A stretch of DNA of 28,336 nucleotides from a virus. The DNA lies in IMG/VR virus record IMGVR_UViG_3300015608_001846, positions 60,001 through 88,336 of that record; one strand, written 5' to 3'. This document shows, in pieces, positions 1 through 5,139 of this stretch. Numbering within the stretch: the stretch's first letter is position 1; each line of letters starts with the position of its first letter. The notes below the pieces were generated by a model. It saw only the letters and a list, made by a program, of their open reading frames with translations. It made no database searches and was not told the DNA's origin. Made by a program: the position numbers and the translations under genes.

Positions 1-280
1 ACACAATTTCGTCATCAAGCGTAAGTTGTCCAGCCTCAATCCAGCCACGTTGAGTCATGACGAGGTGATCAGAGGTGAGTTTAATGACACCAATGTCAGT
101 GTCAAGCTCAATCACGTCTTTCATGCCATTGCATACTGCGGCGACAATTACATCCTGTTCGAGCTCACCAGTCTCTTCATTATACGAAGGAAGCGTGACA
201 CCGATCATCTGATCGTCAACGATCTCTTTGATCGTGATTTCGCCTTCATCGGTCATGACCTTTGCATCGCCAGTCAAGCA
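1..280 (-). mobile_element. Intein (third in dnaE), N-terminal region only; continues beyond the window
   Basis: Cys codon at 280..278 directly after extein ...KKTYS. Block A-like CLTGDAKVM and block B-like LTSDH (TxxH). The window cannot show whether it is contiguous or split. Confidence 0.7.
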
Positions 281-637
281 CGAGTACGTCTTCTTCAGGA
301 TCTCGTTGATTCGTGGGTCACCCCACTCCAGCTCCTTGCCAGCCCTTGCTTCCAAGTAAAGCTTGTCAACGTTTGCCGCGAGAGGTCCAGGTCGGTAGAT
401 CGACGTCAGCGTCGCTATGTCAATGATGCTCTTCGGTTTGGCCTTGACGAACAGCCTTTGCGCACCTGAAGAGGTGAGCTGGAAGATGCCTGCCCACTTG
501 GCCTTTTCATACACCTCATACGGAGATCGGTCGTTGAAGTCGATGACATCGGGAGACATGTGCCGCTCGTACCAGTCCTTGATGTCGGCGAACGTGGGTT
601 TGCACTTCGAAATGTCAGTGACCTTGGTCGGTTTCAT
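1..637 (-). CDS. dnaE: DNA polymerase III alpha (DnaE) fragment D: 119-aa extein followed by the N-terminal part of a further intein. The ORF runs off the left edge and is absent from the supplied ORF track.
   Basis: Own translation of the minus strand from ATG 637..635: MKPTKVTDISKCKPTFADIKDWYERHMSPDVIDFNDRSPYEVYEKAKWAGIFQLTSSGAQRLFVKAKPKSIIDIATLTSIYRPGPLAANV...INEILKKTYS, then CLTGDAKVMTDEGEITIKEIV...IKLTSDHLVMTQRGWIEAGQL. GIFQLxS and YRPGP are canonical DnaE motifs. AGGAG lies just upstream of the ATG. Confidence 0.85.
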   Translation of the reverse strand, partial: MKPTKVTDISKCKPTFADIKDWYERHMSPDVIDFNDRSPYEVYEKAKWAGIFQLTSSGAQRLFVKAKPKSIIDIATLTSIYRPGPLAANVDKLYLEARAGKELEWGDPRINEILKKTYSCLTGDAKVMTDEGEITIKEIVDDQMIGVTLPSYNEETGELEQDVIVAAVCNGMKDVIELDTDIGVIKLTSDHLVMTQRGWIEAGQLTLDDEIV

Positions 638-1655
638 GGACTCCTACGCTGGACTGTCGATCGGTCCCGTCTGGGTTTGACGATTCATCGATGGGTGCTA
701 GCCCAGCGGGAGCGTACCGCCAGCGACACCCATCGTACACTCGACTGGCACGGATGATGTTTAGCATCGTCGACTTGCTGATCCCGAGGTGCCTCTGGGC
801 CGCCGACGCTGAGACGAACACCGCGACGATCGATCCTTCGTCATTGATCTGGTGCACGCACTTCGAGCGGGCCGCCGACAGCAGCGCCTTCGTCTCACCA
901 GAGAGCCTGCGACCCTTCAACGATCGTGAGATGATCGATCTTGTTTCATCTGAGTGGCCCGGGCGCTCCCGTATGGTCGAGCGCGCCCACGACCGACGAC
1001 CGTCCCCTGGAACCGTTGAGCTCGGGCGACGGCCCGACAGGATCGCAGACATGTGAGCGCGGCTGACGCCCGCTGCGCGAGCAGCATCGGACACGGAATC
1101 GTGCACGGCGACGACATTGCCGTCGAGGTCAAACTCGATGACCTGGGTGCAATTGATTCGACGGTGGTTCTGCTGGCGTTTGGCCCTGACGAGGCCCAAG
1201 CGCTCGATGCGATGGCCTGCGATCTCTTGCGCCTTCCGGCCCGAGCTCGTCGACAGCCTACCGACGATCTCAGCGGCCACGCCGAGGTACTGGGCTGCCG
1301 CTGCCGTCGACTCGAACGTCAATCGATCTCCGGCCGGCGTCCACAGCGCGATGGGCACCCGATTGATCCCCGACAGACCGGCGCCCCCTGTCGTCATGTT
1401 GCTTGCGATGTCTGACGCCAGCGGATCAGCGACGAACGTGTGAAGTTCACTGACCAGCCTCCTCTCCTCGGAAAATGCAAGTTCTTCACTGTCGGTCGAT
1501 ACCACGATGCGCCTGTCCAGGCCCAACGCTGCTGAAATTGCAGCGTGCTTCCTGTTACGTCTGACGTTCAGAACGCGTGACGGGCTTCCTTTGCCCACGT
1601 AGTATGCACGCGGCTGCTCTTCCTTCGTGTAGTCGACATATACGCAGAATTTCAT
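615..1655 (-). CDS. GIY-YIG family homing endonuclease with NUMOD1/IENR1-like HTH repeats and NUMOD3-like motifs
   Basis: N-terminus FCVYVDYTKEEQPRAYYVGKG (GIY..YIG spacing), then conserved Arg (RRNRKH) and Glu (FSEERRLVSEL). Three HTH-like repeats: AAQYLGVAAEIV, AARAAGVSRAHMSAIL, AAQRHLGISKSTMLNII. HSDETRSIISRSLKGRRLSGETKALLS is NUMOD3-like. The ATG overlaps the stop of the upstream dnaE piece (ATGA at 1652..1655). Sampled 60-nt lines are about 70% GC, against 40-58% in the flanks. Confidence 0.8.
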   Translation of the reverse strand: MKFCVYVDYTKEEQPRAYYVGKGSPSRVLNVRRNRKHAAISAALGLDRRIVVSTDSEELAFSEERRLVSELHTFVADPLASDIASNMTTGGAGLSGINRVPIALWTPAGDRLTFESTAAAAQYLGVAAEIVGRLSTSSGRKAQEIAGHRIERLGLVRAKRQQNHRRINCTQVIEFDLDGNVVAVHDSVSDAARAAGVSRAHMSAILSGRRPSSTVPGDGRRSWARSTIRERPGHSDETRSIISRSLKGRRLSGETKALLSAARSKCVHQINDEGSIVAVFVSASAAQRHLGISKSTMLNIIRASRVYDGCRWRYAPAGLAPIDESSNPDGTDRQSSVGVHETDQGH

Positions 1656-2527
1656 CGATGTTCAAGCGGAAATCGGAGATCATCATCGACGGTCACAGCA
1701 GCTACAGCCTTCCAGGATCCGTCCTCGAGCATGACTTCTGCGGTGCTCTTCAACCTATGCACCTCGCCTGAAAGCTCGATCTCAACAAGTCCGACCTGTC
1801 TTTCTTTTTGGATGATGAGTTCGATTGTCCGCTCAATGAGTCGCAAAGTTTCTAGACCCAGTAGGTCGTATTTGATGAAATTGCCGATGTACTCGAGGTG
1901 CTTGAAGTTGACGCCCTCGACCCAGGGCGACTGTGGTTCGCCGCCGGAACAGATCAGTGGCATCTTCGACGGCAGGTCATCGCAGATGAGGACACCGCCG
2001 GCGTGGCGGCCCAAGGACCGGTTCTGCTTGAACAGGATCTGGATCGACTCTGCGACCTGCGGGTGACGATCGATGAACGCCTTGAACGACGGAGAGTGGG
2101 CGATGGCATCCTCGTACTTCAAGACGAAGAGGTTCTTGTCGTCGCCGTGCTTCATCGTCGCCCGACGGACGTCGTCCTCGACGGTGCGAGTGGCTGCGTT
2201 GGTCTCCTCGAAGGGAACGCCGTAGAACTTGCCGATGTCCTTCACTAGTGTCTTAAGCTTAAGTGTAATGTAGTTCGAGATGGGCACCACGTTCTCAAAG
2301 CCGAAGAAGACACGCAGTTGGTCAAGGACCTTGTCGCGGTCAGCGAGGTCAGTGTCAATATCTGGGGCACCCGAGTTATGGGTCAGCGTCCAGTCGTGAC
2401 CATTATCAGACACCCAAAATGTGTGTTGATCTTTAACCTCAATGTCAATAAGGTCCAATTCCTCATCAACGACTTCGATGCTCTCGATCTTACACGTGTT
2501 TACAGATGAGACGCTCTGTGTCTGCAT
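1652..2527 (-). CDS. dnaE: IntC (split intein 2, C-half) fused to DnaE fragment C (palm region with catalytic PDxDxD)
   Basis: MQTQSVSSVNTCKIESIEVVDEELDLIDIEVKDQHTFWVSDNGHDWTLTHN, then SGAPDIDTDLADRDKVLDQL...GRHAGGVLI...YDLLGLETLRLIERT. The ...HN/S junction is a canonical intein C-terminal splice site. PDIDTD matches the DnaE catalytic Asp motif (E. coli PDFDVDF). Confidence 0.85.
   Translation of the reverse strand: MQTQSVSSVNTCKIESIEVVDEELDLIDIEVKDQHTFWVSDNGHDWTLTHNSGAPDIDTDLADRDKVLDQLRVFFGFENVVPISNYITLKLKTLVKDIGKFYGVPFEETNAATRTVEDDVRRATMKHGDDKNLFVLKYEDAIAHSPSFKAFIDRHPQVAESIQILFKQNRSLGRHAGGVLICDDLPSKMPLICSGGEPQSPWVEGVNFKHLEYIGNFIKYDLLGLETLRLIERTIELIIQKERQVGLVEIELSGEVHRLKSTAEVMLEDGSWKAVAAVTVDDDLRFPLEHR
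2375..2527 (-). mobile_element. Split intein 2, C-terminal half (IntC2, about 51 aa or shorter)
   Basis: Ends TLTHN (codons to 2375), followed by Ser +1 (2374..2372). Strongly acidic (EVVDEELDLIDIE). Confidence 0.75.
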
Positions 2528-3428
2528 AGTTTCTGTGTTCCAGGTTCGGGATCAAATCGTACACTCCAAGTCGTCGAAGTTCATTGTAGAAGTCGTCCAT
2601 GTAGATGACATCGATGTGTTGGCCTGAAGTCACGATGGCTTTTCGGGCACGTGAGTTTGAATTTAGTAGCTTTGAAAAACGTGATTTACCTTCACGCACT
2701 CCCTTTAGCTCAACGTACCTGTCTTCAGCGCTGAACCAAAAATCAGGAGTGTAGCACTTCTCAACGCCATCGACGACGACATGAAACGCTTTCGCCTCAT
2801 ACTTGGGCGTCACTCCCAAGACGTGCACACAGTATCTGTAGTAGTCAGCCTCAAACGAACTCTTGAAGTATGGACTGTCCACGATGTCAGTACGAAAACC
2901 AGACCGTCCGTTCACATGGGACGCAACCATACCACGCGACTGCGCTTCACGTGTACATCGCTTTCCGCAGAAACGTGGCGTGTAACTCTTCTTTGTGGTG
3001 ATCGGTTTGTCACACATCTCGCAATTGTGCACATGAACATCAACACGTGAAACTGAAAAGCACTTGGGTGAGCAGAACTTTTGTGTTGCCTTTTTGGATG
3101 TGAACTCACGTTTGCAACTCACACACGTCAACACCAACGTCGCAATTTTGGTCAATGCTTTCGCCGTGTGCTTGTATCTACAGGCATTCGAACACAGTTC
3201 ACGAGCGCTGTGACACTTGGACACATAAAACTCATTGCCGCACTCAACGCATGTTTTGACTAACCTCGTCAAAAGAGGCGCACGGGATGCTAGCTTCTTT
3301 TGGGCCCAAGCACAAGCGTCAGAGCAATACTGTCGTCGTAACTTATTGCCAGAACCCTTACCCTTGGGCTCATAGTCAAATCGAAACGTGAGTCTGCAAT
3401 GTTTACATTGTTTCTCAATGATGTTCAT
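2490..3428 (-). CDS. Free-standing putative homing endonuclease: four tandem zinc-ribbon modules plus a C-terminal PD-(D/E)XK-type nuclease domain
   Basis: Four repeats of CxxC-x13-23-[FYL]CxxxC: CKHC..YCSDAC, CVEC..LCSNAC, CVSC..FCSPKC, CEMC..FCGKRC. C-terminus SSFEADYY...CYTPDFWF...RYVELKG gives an E...PD...ExK signature. Lies between IntN2 and IntC2 on the same strand and overlaps both neighbours. Confidence 0.6.
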   Translation of the reverse strand: MNIIEKQCKHCRLTFRFDYEPKGKGSGNKLRRQYCSDACAWAQKKLASRAPLLTRLVKTCVECGNEFYVSKCHSARELCSNACRYKHTAKALTKIATLVLTCVSCKREFTSKKATQKFCSPKCFSVSRVDVHVHNCEMCDKPITTKKSYTPRFCGKRCTREAQSRGMVASHVNGRSGFRTDIVDSPYFKSSFEADYYRYCVHVLGVTPKYEAKAFHVVVDGVEKCYTPDFWFSAEDRYVELKGVREGKSRFSKLLNSNSRARKAIVTSGQHIDVIYMDDFYNELRRLGVYDLIPNLEHRNYADTERLICKHV

Positions 3429-3912
3429 GATGGTACGTATACATCACGTCATCGATCGTCAAGTCTGACGTACGTTTCTTTGTTGGTTTTCCATCAAGTC
3501 CAACCACGAGCCACTCGTGGTTTCCCGAGCACGTGAAGGTGGAGCCGTTCACCTTCACCCGGTATGTTTTCTCGTGTTTCATCGTCACCACGTGGGTGAC
3601 CTCACGAGACGAACCATCTTGTGCAATAACGCTATCACCGACCCTGATATCTCGAAGCGCTGACGTTGACCCGCCAGACATCAAAACGCGCGTTTCAGGT
3701 GAAAGGCAGCGATGGACAGATAGAAACCTTGCGAAAGGCAGGTCCCACTTCAACGGGTCCAAGTCAGTGATGTAGAGGACGTAGGCAACGAGAGAGCCAC
3801 CGCCTGAGTTATGGACTGCGACGCCTTCCACATTGTAGGTGTGGCTGTTCTCAACGCAGAGGTCTACGACCTCACCCTTATACGGAACGACTGTCTTGCT
3901 TTTGAGCTTCAT
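3415..3912 (-). CDS. dnaE: IntC1 (35 aa) + 33-aa DnaE micro-extein (fragment B) + IntN2 (97 aa) in one 165-aa ORF
   Basis: From ATG 3912: MKLKSKTVVPYKGEVVDLCVENSHTYNVEGVAVHN | SGGGSLVAYVLYITDLDPLKWDLPFARFLSVHR | CLSPETRVLMSGG...TCSGNHEWLVV...HHEHH. The extein matches the conserved DnaE stretch GSxAGSLVAY..ITD.DP......ERFLNPER. The track ORF start at 3954 is less likely because it lies deep inside the upstream gene. Confidence 0.85.
   Translation of the reverse strand: MKLKSKTVVPYKGEVVDLCVENSHTYNVEGVAVHNSGGGSLVAYVLYITDLDPLKWDLPFARFLSVHRCLSPETRVLMSGGSTSALRDIRVGDSVIAQDGSSREVTHVVTMKHEKTYRVKVNGSTFTCSGNHEWLVVGLDGKPTKKRTSDLTIDDVMYTYHHEHH
3418..3708 (-). mobile_element. Split intein 2, N-terminal half (IntN2, 97 aa)
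   Basis: Cys1 codon at 3708..3706 after extein ...SVHR. Block A CLSPETRVLM, block B CSGNH. The ORF stops without any C-terminal intein blocks. Confidence 0.8.
3808..3912 (-). mobile_element. Split intein 1, C-terminal half (IntC1, 35 aa)
   Basis: MKLKSKTVVPYKGEVVDLCVENSHTYNVEGVAVHN aligns by eye with the cyanobacterial DnaE IntC pattern (..YDIGVE.DHNF....G...HN). Asn codon 3810..3808, Ser +1 at 3807..3805. Confidence 0.8.
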
Positions 3913-4903
3913 GGTATGCGTTCGCCTTCTTTGAATAGGCGCGTAGGTCCACATCCAATACTACCTTGTACGACCGAGCGTTTGCATTGCACCAGCTCGC
4001 CAAAGCTTCAAGCTTCGCACACCAGGTCAACGGAGATGCATCGATCCAACGCTGCCCCTTTACCTCAACGATAACACCATCGACCACGAAGTCTGGATAA
4101 TAGTCGTGTTCCTTGCCATCGATAGGATCCACGTAAGGTACCGAAAAACCACACCGAACTGCATGTTTCCCGTTGTCAACACACCAGAGCAGAAACGCCA
4201 GTTCTAGCTTCGAGTGGTAGACAGTGACTCCTTCATACAGACCAACGTGTTTATAGACGCCCCGTCCGCCGACCCGGTCGCGGTAATCTGGATCGGATGC
4301 CCACTTGTTACGCATGATGCAAGCCATGTTCTCTTTGTACGCTGGGTCGCTCACTGTTCGTTTTTGTGCCTCTCGCATCACCTTGCCTTGGTCACCCACC
4401 CACAAGGCGCGTGAATTCTCTCGGTGCCTCTCAAGGGTCTCGGGACGGTTCTGAGCGGCAAGTTGAGCCCTGGAATTGATGGCACGGACCTCTTCGTCCC
4501 ACTGATGATGTTTGCGATAACACGATGGACATGCTTGGACGTGGTGACGCCGAGAAAACAGTTTCTTCGCAACACTGACGTATACCACCGAACAATGAAT
4601 GCATCTGACCTGAACTCGTGCCTTCTTTGAGTGTTTGTTCCATTCGTACTCGTCCCACGCAAAACCGATGTAGGGTTTGAAACCCGTCAACGTTGCACGA
4701 CGAGCATACGTCGTTCGATTGATACCGAGGATGGGCTCCAGTAACGACCACAAACGCTGTGTGATGAGCTGCGAATCATCGACACGAAGCGCTTCAATCA
4801 CCACACCCATTTGCTCGTGCGTCAGGAGAATTATCTTAGGCTTCTTCCCTTTGAACCGGGTGCTAGCACGTTCGCGTGCTTCCCGCGTCTTCCGACCATC
4901 CAT
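3878..4903 (-). CDS. Free-standing putative homing endonuclease with a C-terminal PD-(D/E)XK-type nuclease domain and a different N-terminal DNA-binding region
   Basis: C-terminus YHSKLELAFLLWC...HDYYPDFVVDGVIVEVKG gives E...PD...ExK (TnsA/restriction-endonuclease-like). Zinc ribbon CIHC...CPSC. Lies between IntN1 and IntC1 on the same strand. Confidence 0.6.
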   Translation of the reverse strand: MDGRKTREARERASTRFKGKKPKIILLTHEQMGVVIEALRVDDSQLITQRLWSLLEPILGINRTTYARRATLTGFKPYIGFAWDEYEWNKHSKKARVQVRCIHCSVVYVSVAKKLFSRRHHVQACPSCYRKHHQWDEEVRAINSRAQLAAQNRPETLERHRENSRALWVGDQGKVMREAQKRTVSDPAYKENMACIMRNKWASDPDYRDRVGGRGVYKHVGLYEGVTVYHSKLELAFLLWCVDNGKHAVRCGFSVPYVDPIDGKEHDYYPDFVVDGVIVEVKGQRWIDASPLTWCAKLEALASWCNANARSYKVVLDVDLRAYSKKANAYHEAQKQDSRSV

Positions 4904-4926
4904 GCTTCGCAGGTATGGAACGTGGG

Positions 4927-5139
4927 TCAGGTAAACTTCGGAAACAAAAGCTTTGTCGGCGCTTTTGGAACGTCATCTTCATCGCTAAGCCCATGTTGTT
5001 CCCACAATTGCTCATCAAGCAAACGAAAATCGATCGCGTCGAAGAGTTTCAAAAGATCAAGAGGCTCTTCAGAACTTGAAGATGACTCGAACTTCGCAAT
5101 CAAAGCAACGGTTTCAGCTTTGTATTCTTTGATTTTCAT
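4927..5139 (-). CDS. Hypothetical small acidic protein (70 aa)
   Basis: The ORF's ATG overlaps the stop of the IntN1-bearing dnaE piece (ATGA at 5136..5139). Acidic, serine-rich; no recognisable motif. Confidence 0.45.
   Translation of the reverse strand: MKIKEYKAETVALIAKFESSSSSEEPLDLLKLFDAIDFRLLDEQLWEQHGLSDEDDVPKAPTKLLFPKFT

What the first reader, a model, noticed from the sequence alone, without database searches (positions are those of the whole stretch)
545..1807. Intein-less break in dnaE occupied by a compositionally foreign GIY-YIG endonuclease, flanked by extra tails that look like relics of a decayed split intein
Between DLLGLETL... (fragment C) and ...GIFQLTS (fragment D) the gene is cut by a 346-aa GIY-YIG/NUMOD ORF.
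- Its ATG overlaps the fragment C stop (ATGA at 1652..1655).
- Its last 23 nt overlap the fragment D start (ATG 637, AGGAG upstream).
- No splice-competent Cys1, TxxH or terminal HN is present, so the two pieces must associate non-covalently. The established precedent is nrdA of Aeromonas phage Aeh1, split by mobE.

Two further observations.
1. The endonuclease ORF is about 65-70% GC in the 60-nt lines I sampled, against roughly 40-58% in the flanking dnaE and nuclease genes. This suggests recent foreign origin.
2. Fragment C has a ~51-aa tail (KERQVGLVEIELSGEVHRLKSTAEVMLEDGSWKAVAAVTVDDDLRFPLEHR). Fragment D has a ~31-aa leader (MKPTKVTDISKCKPTFADIKDWYERHMSPDV). A contiguous DnaE has only a short linker here.

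The tail resembles an intein block A region lacking Cys1: compare C-L-S-x-x-T-x-V-x-L-x-D-G with LKSTAEVMLEDGSWK. The leader resembles the IntC core: compare TFADIKDWYERH with VVDLCVENSH in IntC1. They may be remnants of a split intein now used only as an association tag.
Basis: partly seen in the sequence, partly recalled or inferred. Interest (0 to 1): 0.7.

Follow-up and report, generated by a model that had tools for sequence, protein, structure and literature searches.

The report
Half-intein tails on split DnaE
A phage DNA polymerase gene is cut in two by a selfish nuclease gene, and the two protein pieces carry leftover halves of a dead split intein that can no longer splice. These leftovers most likely just help the pieces assemble, which would show how protein splicing can decay into simple non-covalent docking.

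Summary
The layout is real. dnaE fragment C (1652-2527, minus strand), a 346-aa NUMOD-type homing-endonuclease ORF (615-1655) and fragment D (ATG 637) overlap exactly as described.

Three details are wrong or overstated:
- The ORF is 61.5% GC, not 65-70%.
- "GIY-YIG" is supported only at motif level.
- Only 12-14 residues of the leader are extra. "TFADIKDWYERH" is native DnaE.

The core idea holds, with different block assignments. The 49-aa tail is homologous to the C-terminal half of a split-intein N-fragment (block B to its end):
- hhalign P=2.5e-11.
- NrdJ-1 intein E=4e-6.
- 1395 hits among 1.84 billion proteins; eight of ten checked carry Pfam intein/Hint domains.

Block A/Cys1 is absent, and the block-B Thr/His are lost family-wide. 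The leader resembles the first strand of an intein C-fragment.

At least 76 clusters of relatives keep the tail, with varied, lost or replaced nuclease genes between the pieces. Two lineages have tail and leader fused in frame.

The tail also matches the C-terminal extension of phage T4 gp39 (gene 39/60 split; structure 8YO3).

Best reading: a mobile tail-nuclease-leader cassette whose half-intein ends dock non-covalently. This is a new variant of a known kind, and function is untested.

The parts
2372..2527 (-). IntC of the preceding canonical split intein, at the start of dnaE fragment C (MQTQ...TLTHN, followed by +1 Ser)
   Evidence: Translation. Alignment with relatives. IntC set.
1802..2371 (-). 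Native DnaE palm segment of fragment C (SGAPDIDTD ... KYDLLGLETLRLIERTIELIIQKE), ending just after the third catalytic Asp motif
   Evidence: Pfam DNA_pol3_alpha match to profile end 260/260. 75-90% identity to relatives.
1655..1801 (-). 49-aa tail (C-terminal extension) RQVGLVEIELSGEVHRLKSTAEVMLEDGSWKAVAAVTVDDDLRFPLEHR. It is a remnant of the C-terminal half of a split-intein N-fragment, with block-B Thr/His replaced by Lys/Ala.
   Evidence: Absent from contiguous relatives. hhalign against IntN gives P=2.5e-11, with clean controls. NrdJ-1 intein E=4.4e-6. 1395 hits in 1.84 billion proteins, with Pfam intein/Hint domains in eight of ten checked. Block B column counts. AlphaFold pLDDT 92-96 over the tail core.
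1652..1655 (-). ATGA overlap: fragment C stop (TGA) and endonuclease start (ATG), implying translational coupling
   Evidence: Sequence.
615..1655 (-). 346-aa free-standing homing-endonuclease-like ORF. The N-terminal domain (about aa 1-100, nt 1356-1655) has a GIY-YIG-like motif only. The C-terminal half carries NUMOD1, NUMOD3 and I-HmuI/I-TevI-type DNA-binding modules (about aa 166-314, nt 714-1160).
   Evidence: Homologues sit at the same position in L008, L012 and L015.
641..645 (-). AGGAG ribosome-binding site for fragment D, inside the 3' end of the endonuclease ORF
   Evidence: Sequence.
596..637 (-). Leader (N-terminal extension) of fragment D, MKPTKVTDISKCKP. It resembles the first beta-strand of a split-intein C-fragment (KIxSI type). 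Relatives read M[AS]KITSIT...
   Evidence: hhalign places it on the first IntC strand, weakly (P=0.008).
281..595 (-). Native DnaE finger-domain segment of fragment D (TFADIKDWYERHMSPDVIDF ... ILKKTYS)
   Evidence: Pfam DNA_pol3_finger match from residue 15. Alignment.
2..280 (-). IntN of the next canonical split intein (CLTGDAKVMTDEGE...), cut by the window edge. It is the closest intein relative of some tails (DHLVMTQRGW against DQLVMTQRGE).

Best explanation
The dnaE gene of this uncultivated jumbo phage (contig 322,887 bp) is interrupted at the palm-finger junction by a three-part cassette:
- a 49-codon in-frame extension on the upstream piece (the tail);
- a free-standing NUMOD-type homing-endonuclease gene;
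- a 12-14-codon in-frame extension on the downstream piece (the leader).

The tail is the C-terminal half of a split-intein N-fragment, from the block B region to its end. It lacks block A/Cys1 and has lost the block-B Thr and His. The leader looks like the first beta-strand of a split-intein C-fragment that lacks blocks F and G.

Protein splicing is therefore impossible at this break. Fragments C and D are made as separate polypeptides. They probably come from one transcript: there is an ATGA start/stop overlap, an internal AGGAG, and no promoter- or terminator-like site on the coding strand.

The mostly acidic tail and mostly basic leader most likely fold together into a small beta-rich "half-Hint" knob outside the polymerase core. 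That knob would dock or chaperone the two pieces non-covalently. It would be like the gp39/gp60 "TOPRIM insertion" of phage T4 topoisomerase II and the tails of Aeh1 NrdA.

Shown: the anatomy, the homology of the tail to inteins, the loss of catalytic residues, conservation across relatives, nuclease turnover and in-frame fusions.

Inferred: the leader's origin, tail-leader pairing, the assembly function, and how the cassette arose. I favour ectopic movement of a nuclease gene together with the flanking ends of a split intein over decay in place.
For: Anatomy.

Extras defined against contiguous relatives. 17 of 18 contiguous homologues read ...ELILIKE-GNPKPTF.... 60 of the 90 loci then held were scored contiguous without any insertion at this site.

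Tail is intein-derived:
- hhalign of a 76-sequence tail profile against the IntN of these phages: prob 97.3%, P=2.5e-11, aligned to columns 50-97 of 124. Reversed and shuffled controls gave P>=0.037.
- hmmsearch against PDB sequences: NrdJ-1 split intein E=4.4e-6 at residues 64-106; weaker DnaE, DnaX and VidaL inteins.
- The same profile found 1395 proteins at E<=1e-3 (50 at <=1e-10) among 1.84 billion. Ten were checked with Pfam and eight carry intein/Hint domains (in RecA, helicases, RNR, DnaE and others). Where it could be mapped, the stretch falls on Intein_splicing positions about 50-93.
- The AlphaFold model of tail plus leader has pLDDT 88.5. Its Foldseek list is enriched for inteins (rmsd 1.2-1.7 A over about 40 residues), but no single hit is significant.

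Catalytic residues lost. At the block B columns, inteins have Thr 18/19 and His 19/19. Tails have Thr 3/76 and His 1/76.

Selection and mobility:
- At least 76 clusters of fragment-C-like proteins end in this tail.
- Every split relative whose D fragment I read (11 distinct arrangements) starts it with M[AS]K[IV]TSIT-like leaders.
- The intervening content varies: NUMOD ORFs, 554-559-aa Vsr-like homing endonucleases, unrelated ORFs, or about 300 nt with no ORF.
- In-frame fusions of tail and leader exist in a syntenic phage (P0010/L005) and in P0065.
- Exteins are 75-90% identical, tails only 18-50%. The two tail types are interleaved when ranked by extein similarity.

Charge. Tails have net charge -1 to -6 in 12 of 13 cases. 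Leaders are 0 to +3 in 12 of 13. This matches the anionic IntN / cationic IntC capture step of split inteins (review PMC11766414).

Precedents:
- Aeh1 NrdA tails are essential for activity, and their intein origin was speculated without any database match (PMC3045599).
- The T4 MobA element adds a C-terminal and an N-terminal extension, with nuclease replacement, nuclease loss and re-fusion (bioRxiv 10.1101/2022.08.31.505936).
- In the T4 structure the gp39 and gp60 extensions form one about 70-aa pendant domain (PMC11461880).
- The gp39 extension matches the DnaE tail profile: E=9.6e-4 against PDB, hhalign P=7e-8.

The same arrangement occurs on 11 contigs from several samples.
Against: - There are no experimental data for this protein.
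- The AlphaFold model did not place the window's leader as a docked strand. The leader region has pLDDT 76-87 and almost no strand.
- The leader-IntC similarity is short and weak (P=0.008).
- In Aeh1 the tails were not needed for heterodimer formation, only for higher-order assembly and activity. In T4 the fused insertion had little effect on activity. So "association tag" may be too simple.
- Tails evolve much faster than the exteins.
- Single tails get no Pfam Hint hit.
- No relative with a complete intein at this exact site was found, so the donor intein and the route of origin remain open.
Confidence: 0.65

Rival explanations
1. The tail and leader are neutral baggage. They would be pieces of flanking intein sequence that hitch-hiked with the nuclease gene and persist only because removing them cleanly is hard. 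Fragments C and D would then associate through the native palm-finger interface alone.
For: Tails diverge fast: 18-50% identity against 75-90% for exteins. Aeh1 tails are dispensable for heterodimer formation. The T4 insertion has little effect on activity when fused. The AlphaFold model does not dock the leader.
Against: The length, hydrophobic pattern and G/DG/DD positions are kept in at least 76 clusters. Tail and leader are retained after nuclease loss (L022) and in in-frame fusions. The opposite net charges are conserved. The tail core is predicted as a confident fold. Aeh1 tails are essential for activity.
Confidence: 0.2
2. The about 60-aa module is an older native insertion domain of this DnaE clade, contiguous as in P0010 and P0065. 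Nuclease genes later landed inside it repeatedly. Its intein likeness would reflect ancient shared ancestry of Hint-like beta modules, not a recent intein remnant.
For: Contiguous in-frame versions exist in two lineages. The split point corresponds to the canonical nuclease insertion point of inteins, which is a tolerant loop.
Against: Most relatives have no insertion at all. The fused L005 version keeps a GGGAG-N7-ATG relic exactly at the leader start. Tail types are discordant with extein similarity. Some tails are close to the neighbouring canonical IntN, for example P0088 DQLVMTQRGE against DHLVMTQRGW. The same re-fusion route is described for the T4 MobA element.
Confidence: 0.1
3. An unconventional split intein is still active. 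The tail and leader, perhaps with help from the exteins or the nuclease protein, would ligate C and D by non-canonical chemistry.
For: Inteins with atypical nucleophiles and atypically split inteins exist (review PMC11766414). The tail is genuinely Hint-derived.
Against: About half of the Hint fold is missing: block A and blocks F/G. There is no conserved nucleophile at the tail start or at the +1 position. Block-B Thr/His are lost family-wide. The in-frame fused variants keep the module as part of the mature protein. T4 gp39 and gp60 are known to remain separate subunits.
Confidence: 0.03
4. The interruption is a group I intron carrying the nuclease ORF. The "tail" and "leader" would then be read-through of intron RNA, not protein.
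For: GIY-YIG/NUMOD nucleases are often intron-encoded. An intron would explain extra in-frame codons on both sides.
Against: Rfam gives no hit at the gathering threshold over the whole window, and none at E<=10 over 300-2100. The tail- and leader-coding RNA folds no better than shuffles (z +0.70 and +0.49). The tail is conserved as protein at 18-50% identity, with a fixed stop position, in at least 76 clusters, and is homologous to inteins. Fragment D has its own ribosome-binding site and ATG. In-frame fusions exist. One caveat: a 1-kb ORF inside an intron loop lowers the sensitivity of the Rfam scan.
Confidence: 0.02

Closest known systems
Phage T4 topoisomerase II genes 39/60 split by the MobA element (C- and N-terminal extensions; "TOPRIM insertion", PDB 8YO3)
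   Same: A free-standing homing-endonuclease cassette splits an essential replication gene. It adds an in-frame C-terminal extension of about 44 aa upstream and an N-terminal extension downstream. The nuclease can be pseudogenised, replaced by GIY-YIG or Vsr types, or lost, and the gene can re-fuse while keeping both extensions. The two extensions form one small pendant domain thought to aid assembly. The gp39 extension matches the DnaE tail profile: E=9.6e-4 against PDB and hhalign P=7e-8. It is also the top, though non-significant, Foldseek hit.
   Different: The host gene differs (DnaE palm/finger junction against the TOPRIM domain). There is no translational bypass cassette here. The DnaE leader is much shorter (12-14 aa against 44-45 aa). 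Neither of the two T4 papers I read describes the extensions as intein-derived: PMC11461880 never uses the word "intein", and the preprint says the mobA insertion has neither intron nor intein safeguard. The direct T4-to-intein signal is weak (P about 0.005), so the link runs through the DnaE tails.
Aeromonas phage Aeh1 NrdA-a/NrdA-b split by mobE (Friedrich 2007; Crona 2011, PMC3045599)
   Same: An essential gene is split by a free-standing nuclease gene with no intron or intein. Oppositely charged C- and N-terminal tails came in with the mobile element, stay in the mature proteins and are essential for activity. The authors speculated that they might be remnants of a degenerate split intein.
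   Different: The Aeh1 tails are short and gave no database match, so their origin is unknown. Here intein homology is demonstrable. The charge polarity is reversed: the Aeh1 upstream tail is basic, the DnaE tail acidic. Function is proven experimentally in Aeh1 and untested here.
"Fractured genes": split inteins with a free-standing nuclease gene between IntN and IntC (Dassa et al. 2009, PMC2677866), e.g. NrdJ-1, gp41-1, DnaE-1/2/3
   Same: The genomic grammar is the same: host fragment, intein-derived piece, GIY-YIG or Vsr-like nuclease gene, intein-derived piece, host fragment. It occurs in phage-like DnaE, with overlapping reading frames. Four such canonical split inteins lie in this very gene. 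The NrdJ-1 intein is the best PDB sequence match of the tail.
   Different: Those inteins keep all six motifs and the catalytic Cys1, Thr/His, Asn and +1 residue, and they splice. Here only about the last 45 residues of IntN and about the first 10 of IntC remain, without catalytic residues.
Capture step of naturally split inteins (Npu/Ssp DnaE; Shah et al. 2013 as summarised in PMC11766414)
   Same: A disordered anionic part of IntN and a cationic IntC recognise each other electrostatically before folding. The tail is mostly acidic and the leader mostly basic. By alignment they correspond to the IntN C-terminal half and the IntC start.
   Different: There is no subsequent catalysis. That the IntN C-half plus the IntC start suffice for stable binding is my inference, not something shown here.

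Membership tests
Canonical (splicing) split intein, Hint superfamily | Block A with Cys/Ser/Ala1 at the extein-IntN junction, and the N-terminal half of IntN | tested here: not met
   The tail begins RQVGL directly after native ...ELIIQKE. It aligns only to IntN columns 50-97 of 124. There is no conserved nucleophile at the tail start in 76 tails.
Canonical (splicing) split intein, Hint superfamily | Block B TxxH | tested here: not met
   The window has K..A at these columns. Tails have Thr 3/76 and His 1/76, against Thr 18/19 and His 19/19 in inteins of the same phages.
Canonical (splicing) split intein, Hint superfamily | Blocks F/G with terminal (H)N followed by a +1 Cys/Ser/Thr | tested here: not met
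   The leader is 12-14 aa, has no HN, and joins native PTF directly. The position before Phe varies among relatives (T/S/K/N/I/H/E/A).
Canonical (splicing) split intein, Hint superfamily | Sequence and fold homology to the Hint domain | tested here: met
   Met for the tail only, as the C-terminal half of IntN. hhalign P=2.5e-11. NrdJ-1 intein E=4.4e-6. 1395 hits, with Pfam intein/Hint domains in eight of ten checked. The Foldseek list is enriched for inteins but not individually significant.
Nuclease-split gene with cassette-derived C- and N-terminal extensions (T4 39/60-MobA, Aeh1 nrdA-mobE type) | A host ORF is split by a free-standing homing-endonuclease gene, with in-frame extensions absent from uninterrupted homologues | tested here: met
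Nuclease-split gene with cassette-derived C- and N-terminal extensions (T4 39/60-MobA, Aeh1 nrdA-mobE type) | Extensions persist through nuclease replacement, nuclease loss and secondary re-fusion | tested here: met
   NUMOD, Vsr-like, other or no ORF lies between the pieces in relatives. P0010 and P0065 are fused.
Nuclease-split gene with cassette-derived C- and N-terminal extensions (T4 39/60-MobA, Aeh1 nrdA-mobE type) | Extensions stay in the mature proteins and are needed for assembly or activity | not testable with these tools
   This needs proteomics and biochemistry. Only conservation, charge pattern and a confident fold prediction are available.
GIY-YIG homing endonuclease | Catalytic domain recognised by the family model (Pfam PF01541) or by fold | tested here: inconclusive
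   No Pfam hit at E<=10. No PDB sequence hit. hhalign against I-TevI and against a Pfam-positive GIY-YIG protein is not significant. AlphaFold pLDDT is 55. Invariant Y6, Y19, G21, R27, H37, E64/E70 and N86 in six homologues fit the family's catalytic pattern as I recall it from I-TevI.
GIY-YIG homing endonuclease | Modular NUMOD / helix-turn-helix DNA-binding region after a linker | tested here: met
   NUMOD1 1.6e-7, I-HmuI NUMOD-like 4e-7, NUMOD3 4e-4, I-TevI DNA-binding domain 6e-5. phrog_314 homing endonuclease 1e-10. Foldseek I-HmuI E=0.095.
Group I intron with an internal nuclease ORF | Conserved catalytic RNA core flanking the ORF | tested here: not met
   No Rfam match at gathering or at E<=10. 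Flanks fold like shuffles. The flanks are conserved as protein.

The most novel reading that the evidence does not exclude
The IntN C-terminal half plus the first IntC strand would be an autonomous, non-catalytic docking module. It would travel with homing-endonuclease genes as a tail-nuclease-leader cassette. It would also be the common origin of the unexplained extensions on several nuclease-split phage proteins: these DnaE pieces, the T4-type topoisomerase gp39/gp60 insertion, and some ribonucleotide reductase fragments (P0142). That would be a general evolutionary route from protein splicing to purely non-covalent complementation.
Probability: 0.4. Interest if true: 0.8.

Novelty: new variant of a known kind. 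Interest (0 to 1): 0.62.

Why it matters
Three solutions are known for genes broken by selfish nucleases: RNA splicing, protein splicing, and ad hoc "tails" that reassemble the pieces. The origin of such tails has been an open question. Crona et al. (2011) guessed at degenerate inteins but found no sequence match.

Here the match exists and is statistically strong. This makes the hypothesis directly testable in a large natural family with split, nuclease-less and re-fused forms.

The work also ties the tails to the classic T4 gene 39/60 split, for which a structure (8YO3) is available.

Practically, a natural non-splicing half-intein pair could serve as a small heterodimerisation tag. It could also define the minimal binding unit of split inteins.

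Tried and rejected
- **Group I intron.** Rfam gathering scan of the whole window and an E<=10 scan of 300-2100 found nothing. RNA folding of the tail and leader regions gave z +0.70 and +0.49. Rejected.
- **Close relatives among cultured phages.** megablast of 1-8000 found nothing. tblastn of fragment C found only DnaEs below 33% identity. tblastn of the tail gave only chance-level hits.
- **DNA alignment of the window junctions with the fused L005 allele.** Too diverged to map breakpoints.
- **Pfam on single tails.** No Hint family recovered beyond one weak Vint hit. Profile methods were needed.
- **AlphaFold with paired tail+leader rows from other loci.** The accepted run had almost no leader information.
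- **Foldseek of the 80-aa module.** No individually significant hit.
- **Confirming the GIY-YIG fold.** Pfam at E<=10, PDB phmmer and hmmsearch, hhalign against I-TevI and against a Pfam-positive GIY-YIG protein, and AlphaFold plus Foldseek were all negative or low-confidence.
- **Homologue search with the nuclease ORF.** Returned only 4 proteins. The search with the T4 gp39 C-terminus returned only 6, which limits those profiles.
- **A complete intein at this exact DnaE site.** None was seen among the 120 listed homologues or the fetched loci.
- **Promoter and terminator scan of 400-2100.** Nothing on the coding strand.

Full report
**1. What is in the window**

On the minus strand the window holds a dnaE gene in pieces.
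- Fragment A is 5136-6836: the PHP domain and the start of the palm, ending in an IntN.
- A nuclease-like ORF follows at 3878-4903.
- Fragment B is 3415-3954: IntC, a short extein, then IntN.
- A second nuclease-like ORF follows at 2490-3428.
- Fragment C is 1652-2527: IntC, then palm up to KYDLLGLETLRLIERTIELIIQKE, then 49 extra residues.
- A 346-aa ORF lies at 615-1655.
- Fragment D starts at ATG 637: 12-14 extra residues, the finger domain, then another IntN that runs off the window edge.

Fragment C, as encoded here, was found on 11 metagenome contigs, the longest 322,887 bp. There dnaE continues with fragments E and F. This is an uncultivated jumbo phage. GenBank phages have nothing closer than 33% protein identity.

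**2. Check of the observation**

The overlaps are exact. ATGA at 1652-1655 joins the fragment C stop to the ORF start. The ORF's last 23 nt overlap fragment D. AGGAG sits at 641-645.

There is no promoter- or terminator-like site on the coding strand between the pieces. One transcript with translational coupling is therefore likely.

*GC content.* The ORF is 61.5% GC. It is the richest 1-kb stretch of the window (mean 52.5%, sd 2.9%). Its GC3 (0.709) equals that of dnaE fragments A and C. The excess is at codon position 2, from a Gly/Ala/Arg/Pro-rich protein.

The homologous ORFs in relatives L008, L012 and L015 are AT-richer than their flanks (GC3 0.455, 0.361, 0.181). So the window's copy is compositionally odd for its family. 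Acquisition from a GC-richer donor is plausible but unproven.

*Nuclease identity.* The C-terminal half carries NUMOD1, NUMOD3 and I-HmuI/I-TevI-type DNA-binding modules and matches a PHROG homing-endonuclease family. The N-terminal domain could not be confirmed as GIY-YIG by any model or fold test. Only a conserved motif pattern fits.

**3. Which residues are really extra**

I searched with fragment C's extein and tail joined to fragment D's leader and extein. This found contiguous relatives at up to 71% identity. 17 of 18 that I aligned read ...RLIERTIELILIKE-GNPKPTFDDIKAWYEKHMAPDVIDF.... Among the 90 loci then held, 60 were scored contiguous with no insertion at this site.

KPTFADIKDWYERHMSPDV is conserved DnaE, and the Pfam finger match starts at residue 15. 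Only MKPTKVTDISKC(KP) is extra. The 49-aa tail is truly extra.

**4. The tail and leader form a conserved family**

Among the 120 best homologues, 76 clusters are fragment-C-like proteins. Each stops 45-60 residues after ...ELI[IL]xK, with a tail of conserved pattern (G-hEhEh-G-xxxRh-xxxxhxLxDG-xxxxhxxL-xxDDh-xPhE). There are two subtypes.

Every split relative whose downstream piece I read (11 distinct arrangements) starts it with M[AS]K[IV]TSIT-like residues before the native F-x-D-I-K-x-W-Y.

What lies between the pieces varies:
- homologues of the window's ORF (L008, L012, L015);
- 554-559-aa Vsr-like homing endonucleases (L007, L009);
- unrelated ORFs (L010, L023, L025, L027, L036, L042, L071, L078);
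- about 300 nt with no ORF on the coding strand (L022).

Two lineages have tail and leader fused in frame with no nuclease gene. One is P0010, in a phage with the same local gene order (L005). It keeps a GGGAG-N7-ATG relic at the leader start. The other is P0065.

Exteins are 75-90% identical to the window, but tails only 18-50%. The two tail types are interleaved when relatives are ranked by extein similarity. The extensions therefore behave as part of a mobile cassette, not as part of dnaE.

**5. What the tail is**

Four lines of evidence agree.
- A 76-sequence tail profile aligns to the IntN profile of the canonical split inteins of these phages. Probability is 97.3% and P=2.5e-11, over 47 columns that correspond to IntN columns 50-97 of 124. 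One reversed and ten column-shuffled controls gave P>=0.037.
- A 63-row tail profile (A5) searched against all PDB sequences hits the NrdJ-1 split intein at E=4.4e-6. The match covers residues 64-106, VELEIDTLHGVKTIRCTPDHPVYTKNRGYVRADELTDDDELVV. Weaker hits are the DnaE, DnaX and VidaL inteins.
- The A5 profile searched against 1.84 billion representative proteins finds 1395 at E<=1e-3, the best at 1e-19. I checked ten with Pfam. Eight carry intein/Hint domains, in RecA, UvsW/DEAD helicases, ribonucleotide reductase, DnaE and others. Where it could be mapped, the stretch falls on Intein_splicing positions about 50-93 of 155.
- An AlphaFold model of the window's tail plus leader is confident (pLDDT 88.5; 92-96 over the tail core) and beta-rich. 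Its Foldseek list contains many inteins at rmsd 1.2-1.7 A over about 40 residues. No single hit is significant for so small a query.

At the block B columns, inteins have Thr 18/19 and His 19/19. Tails have Thr 3/76 and His 1/76. The window has Lys and Ala there.

The tail is therefore the last 45 or so residues of an IntN. It is not the best assignment.

**6. What the leader is**

The extra residues (consensus MAKITSITK) resemble the first strand of the IntC pieces in this very gene. Fragment F begins MTNIKSITPVGKHQTFDLEV, and other IntCs read ...KIKSIKR... hhalign places the leader on that strand, but weakly (P=0.008, 9 columns).

Blocks F and G are absent. I regard the IntC origin of the leader as probable, not shown.

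**7. How it most likely works**

Splicing is excluded by anatomy, so C and D stay separate polypeptides. Tails are net acidic in 12 of 13 cases, and leaders are neutral to basic in 12 of 13. Split inteins associate by electrostatic capture between an anionic disordered IntN region and a cationic IntC (PMC11766414).

I infer that tail and leader fold together into a small half-Hint knob that docks, or chaperones the assembly of, the palm and finger pieces. The break lies in a loop after the helix that follows the third catalytic Asp motif (DLLGL). That placement rests on my own knowledge of DnaE structures.

*Caveats.* The AlphaFold model did not dock the window's leader. In the two experimental precedents the tails matter for higher-order assembly or expression rather than for simple pairing.

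**8. Comparison with what is known**

*Aeh1 nrdA/mobE.* Crona et al. showed that its cassette-derived tails are essential. They speculated about a degenerate intein origin but found no database match (PMC3045599).

*T4 MobA element.* A 2022 preprint described it as a C-terminal extension, nuclease gene and N-terminal extension, with nuclease replacement, loss and re-fusion. This is the same natural history seen here. The preprint states that the mobA insertion has neither intron nor intein safeguard.

*T4 structure.* The 2024 T4/T6 topoisomerase structures show the gp39 C-terminus and gp60 N-terminus forming an about 70-aa pendant "TOPRIM insertion". The paper never mentions inteins (PMC11461880).

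*Unexpected link.* The DnaE tail profile hits exactly the last 40 residues of T4 gp39, which is 516 aa long. The hit is E=9.6e-4 against PDB. hhalign gives P=4e-7 with T4 alone and P=7e-8 with a four-sequence profile. The same PDB chain is the top Foldseek hit. The direct T4-to-intein signal is weak (P about 0.005, same register), so that link is transitive and provisional.

*Other hosts.* Two non-DnaE proteins with a tail but no upstream block A also turned up: P0142, a ribonucleotide reductase fragment, and P0163.

*Fractured genes.* Dassa et al. (PMC2677866) described fractured genes, including phage-like DnaE, with intact split inteins and GIY-YIG or Vsr-like nucleases. The present locus has the same grammar, with the catalytic half of the intein gone.

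**9. Origin**

Two routes remain open.
- (a) A nuclease gene sitting between IntN and IntC moved ectopically and carried the adjacent IntN end and IntC start with it.
- (b) A full split intein at this site lost block A and blocks F/G.

I favour (a), at about 60:40, for three reasons:
- No full intein was found at this site.
- Tail type is discordant with extein similarity.
- Some tails are very close to the neighbouring IntN of fragment D.

**10. Verdict**

This is a nuclease-split gene with cassette-derived extensions, which is a known kind. What I have not seen reported in the papers searched is twofold. The upstream extension is provably the C-terminal half of a split-intein N-fragment stripped of its catalytic residues. 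And it is conserved across a large family of jumbo-phage DnaEs, with a probable tie to the T4 gene 39/60 split.

I rate it a new variant of a known kind, with interest 0.62.

Noticed in passing
window 1-6836 and beyond (L001:5692-17124): The whole dnaE is in at least six pieces (A-F). They are joined by four canonical split inteins plus this one intein-less break. Every gap holds nuclease-like ORFs (TnsA/endonuclease-I-like, Vsr-like with zinc fingers, and others). The gene spans about 11.4 kb.
   Followed up: partly
L091 (phage T4 NC_000866) 3778-3900, minus strand; PDB 8yo3_C residues 477-515: The C-terminal extension of T4 gp39 (EKEDGEWFTFELNGDTIIVNENDEVQINGKWITVGELRKNL) matches the DnaE tail profile: E=9.6e-4 against PDB and hhalign P=7e-8. 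Neither of the two T4 papers I read calls it intein-related. Relatives P0275-P0277 carry a canonical IntC and this extension on the same topoisomerase fragment.
   Followed up: partly
P0142 (488 aa) and P0163 (281 aa): These non-DnaE proteins end in the same kind of tail without an upstream block A/Cys1. In both the tail comes shortly after the end of a canonical intein. P0142 is a ribonucleotide reductase fragment; the host protein of P0163 is not identified. The half-intein tail may recur in several split genes.
   Followed up: partly
L005:8840-8920: In the fused (nuclease-less) allele, the linker between tail and leader contains GGGAG 7 nt before an in-frame ATG at the leader start. This looks like a relic ribosome-binding site and start codon of a former separate fragment D.
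   Followed up: partly
window 615-1655 compared with L008:3967-4890, L012:5189-6376, L015:5396-6142: The window's nuclease ORF is GC-richer than its flanks (GC3 0.709, GC2 0.527). Its homologues in relatives are AT-richer than theirs (GC3 0.455, 0.361, 0.181). The window copy also has an about 80-aa Arg/Ala/Gly/Ser-rich insert with an extra NUMOD-like module.
   Followed up: partly
P0065 and P0111: P0065 is a contiguous DnaE with a shortened tail-like plus leader-like insertion at this site. P0111 has a different, unrelated about 60-aa insertion at the same site. This loop seems to be a hotspot for insertions.
   Followed up: no
L008:3026-3967, L009:6001-6855, P0006-P0008, P0011 (columns 270-297): Some relatives carry a Cys-rich insertion of about 25 aa (pattern HC...C.GC...C, zinc-finger-like) in the palm segment of fragment C. 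The window lacks it.
   Followed up: no
window 6846-7280 (minus strand): A recombination endonuclease VII ORF (Pfam 6e-18) with a TTG start lies immediately upstream of dnaE fragment A. It is AT-rich (42% GC).
   Followed up: no
L001:17854-18780 (outside the window): A second free-standing nuclease ORF (308 aa), which Pfam does recognise as GIY-YIG, lies just downstream of dnaE fragment F after a methyltransferase gene.
   Followed up: no
L001:12531-12628 (outside the window; C-terminal end of fragment D's IntN): The IntN of fragment D has a long extension after the Hint part (KDYTYLSGAALEDEQAGEAVSNVRKDVLNKK; acidic in its middle, basic at its end). It is conserved in relatives (YLSGAMLEDEQ). 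Its function is unknown.
   Followed up: no
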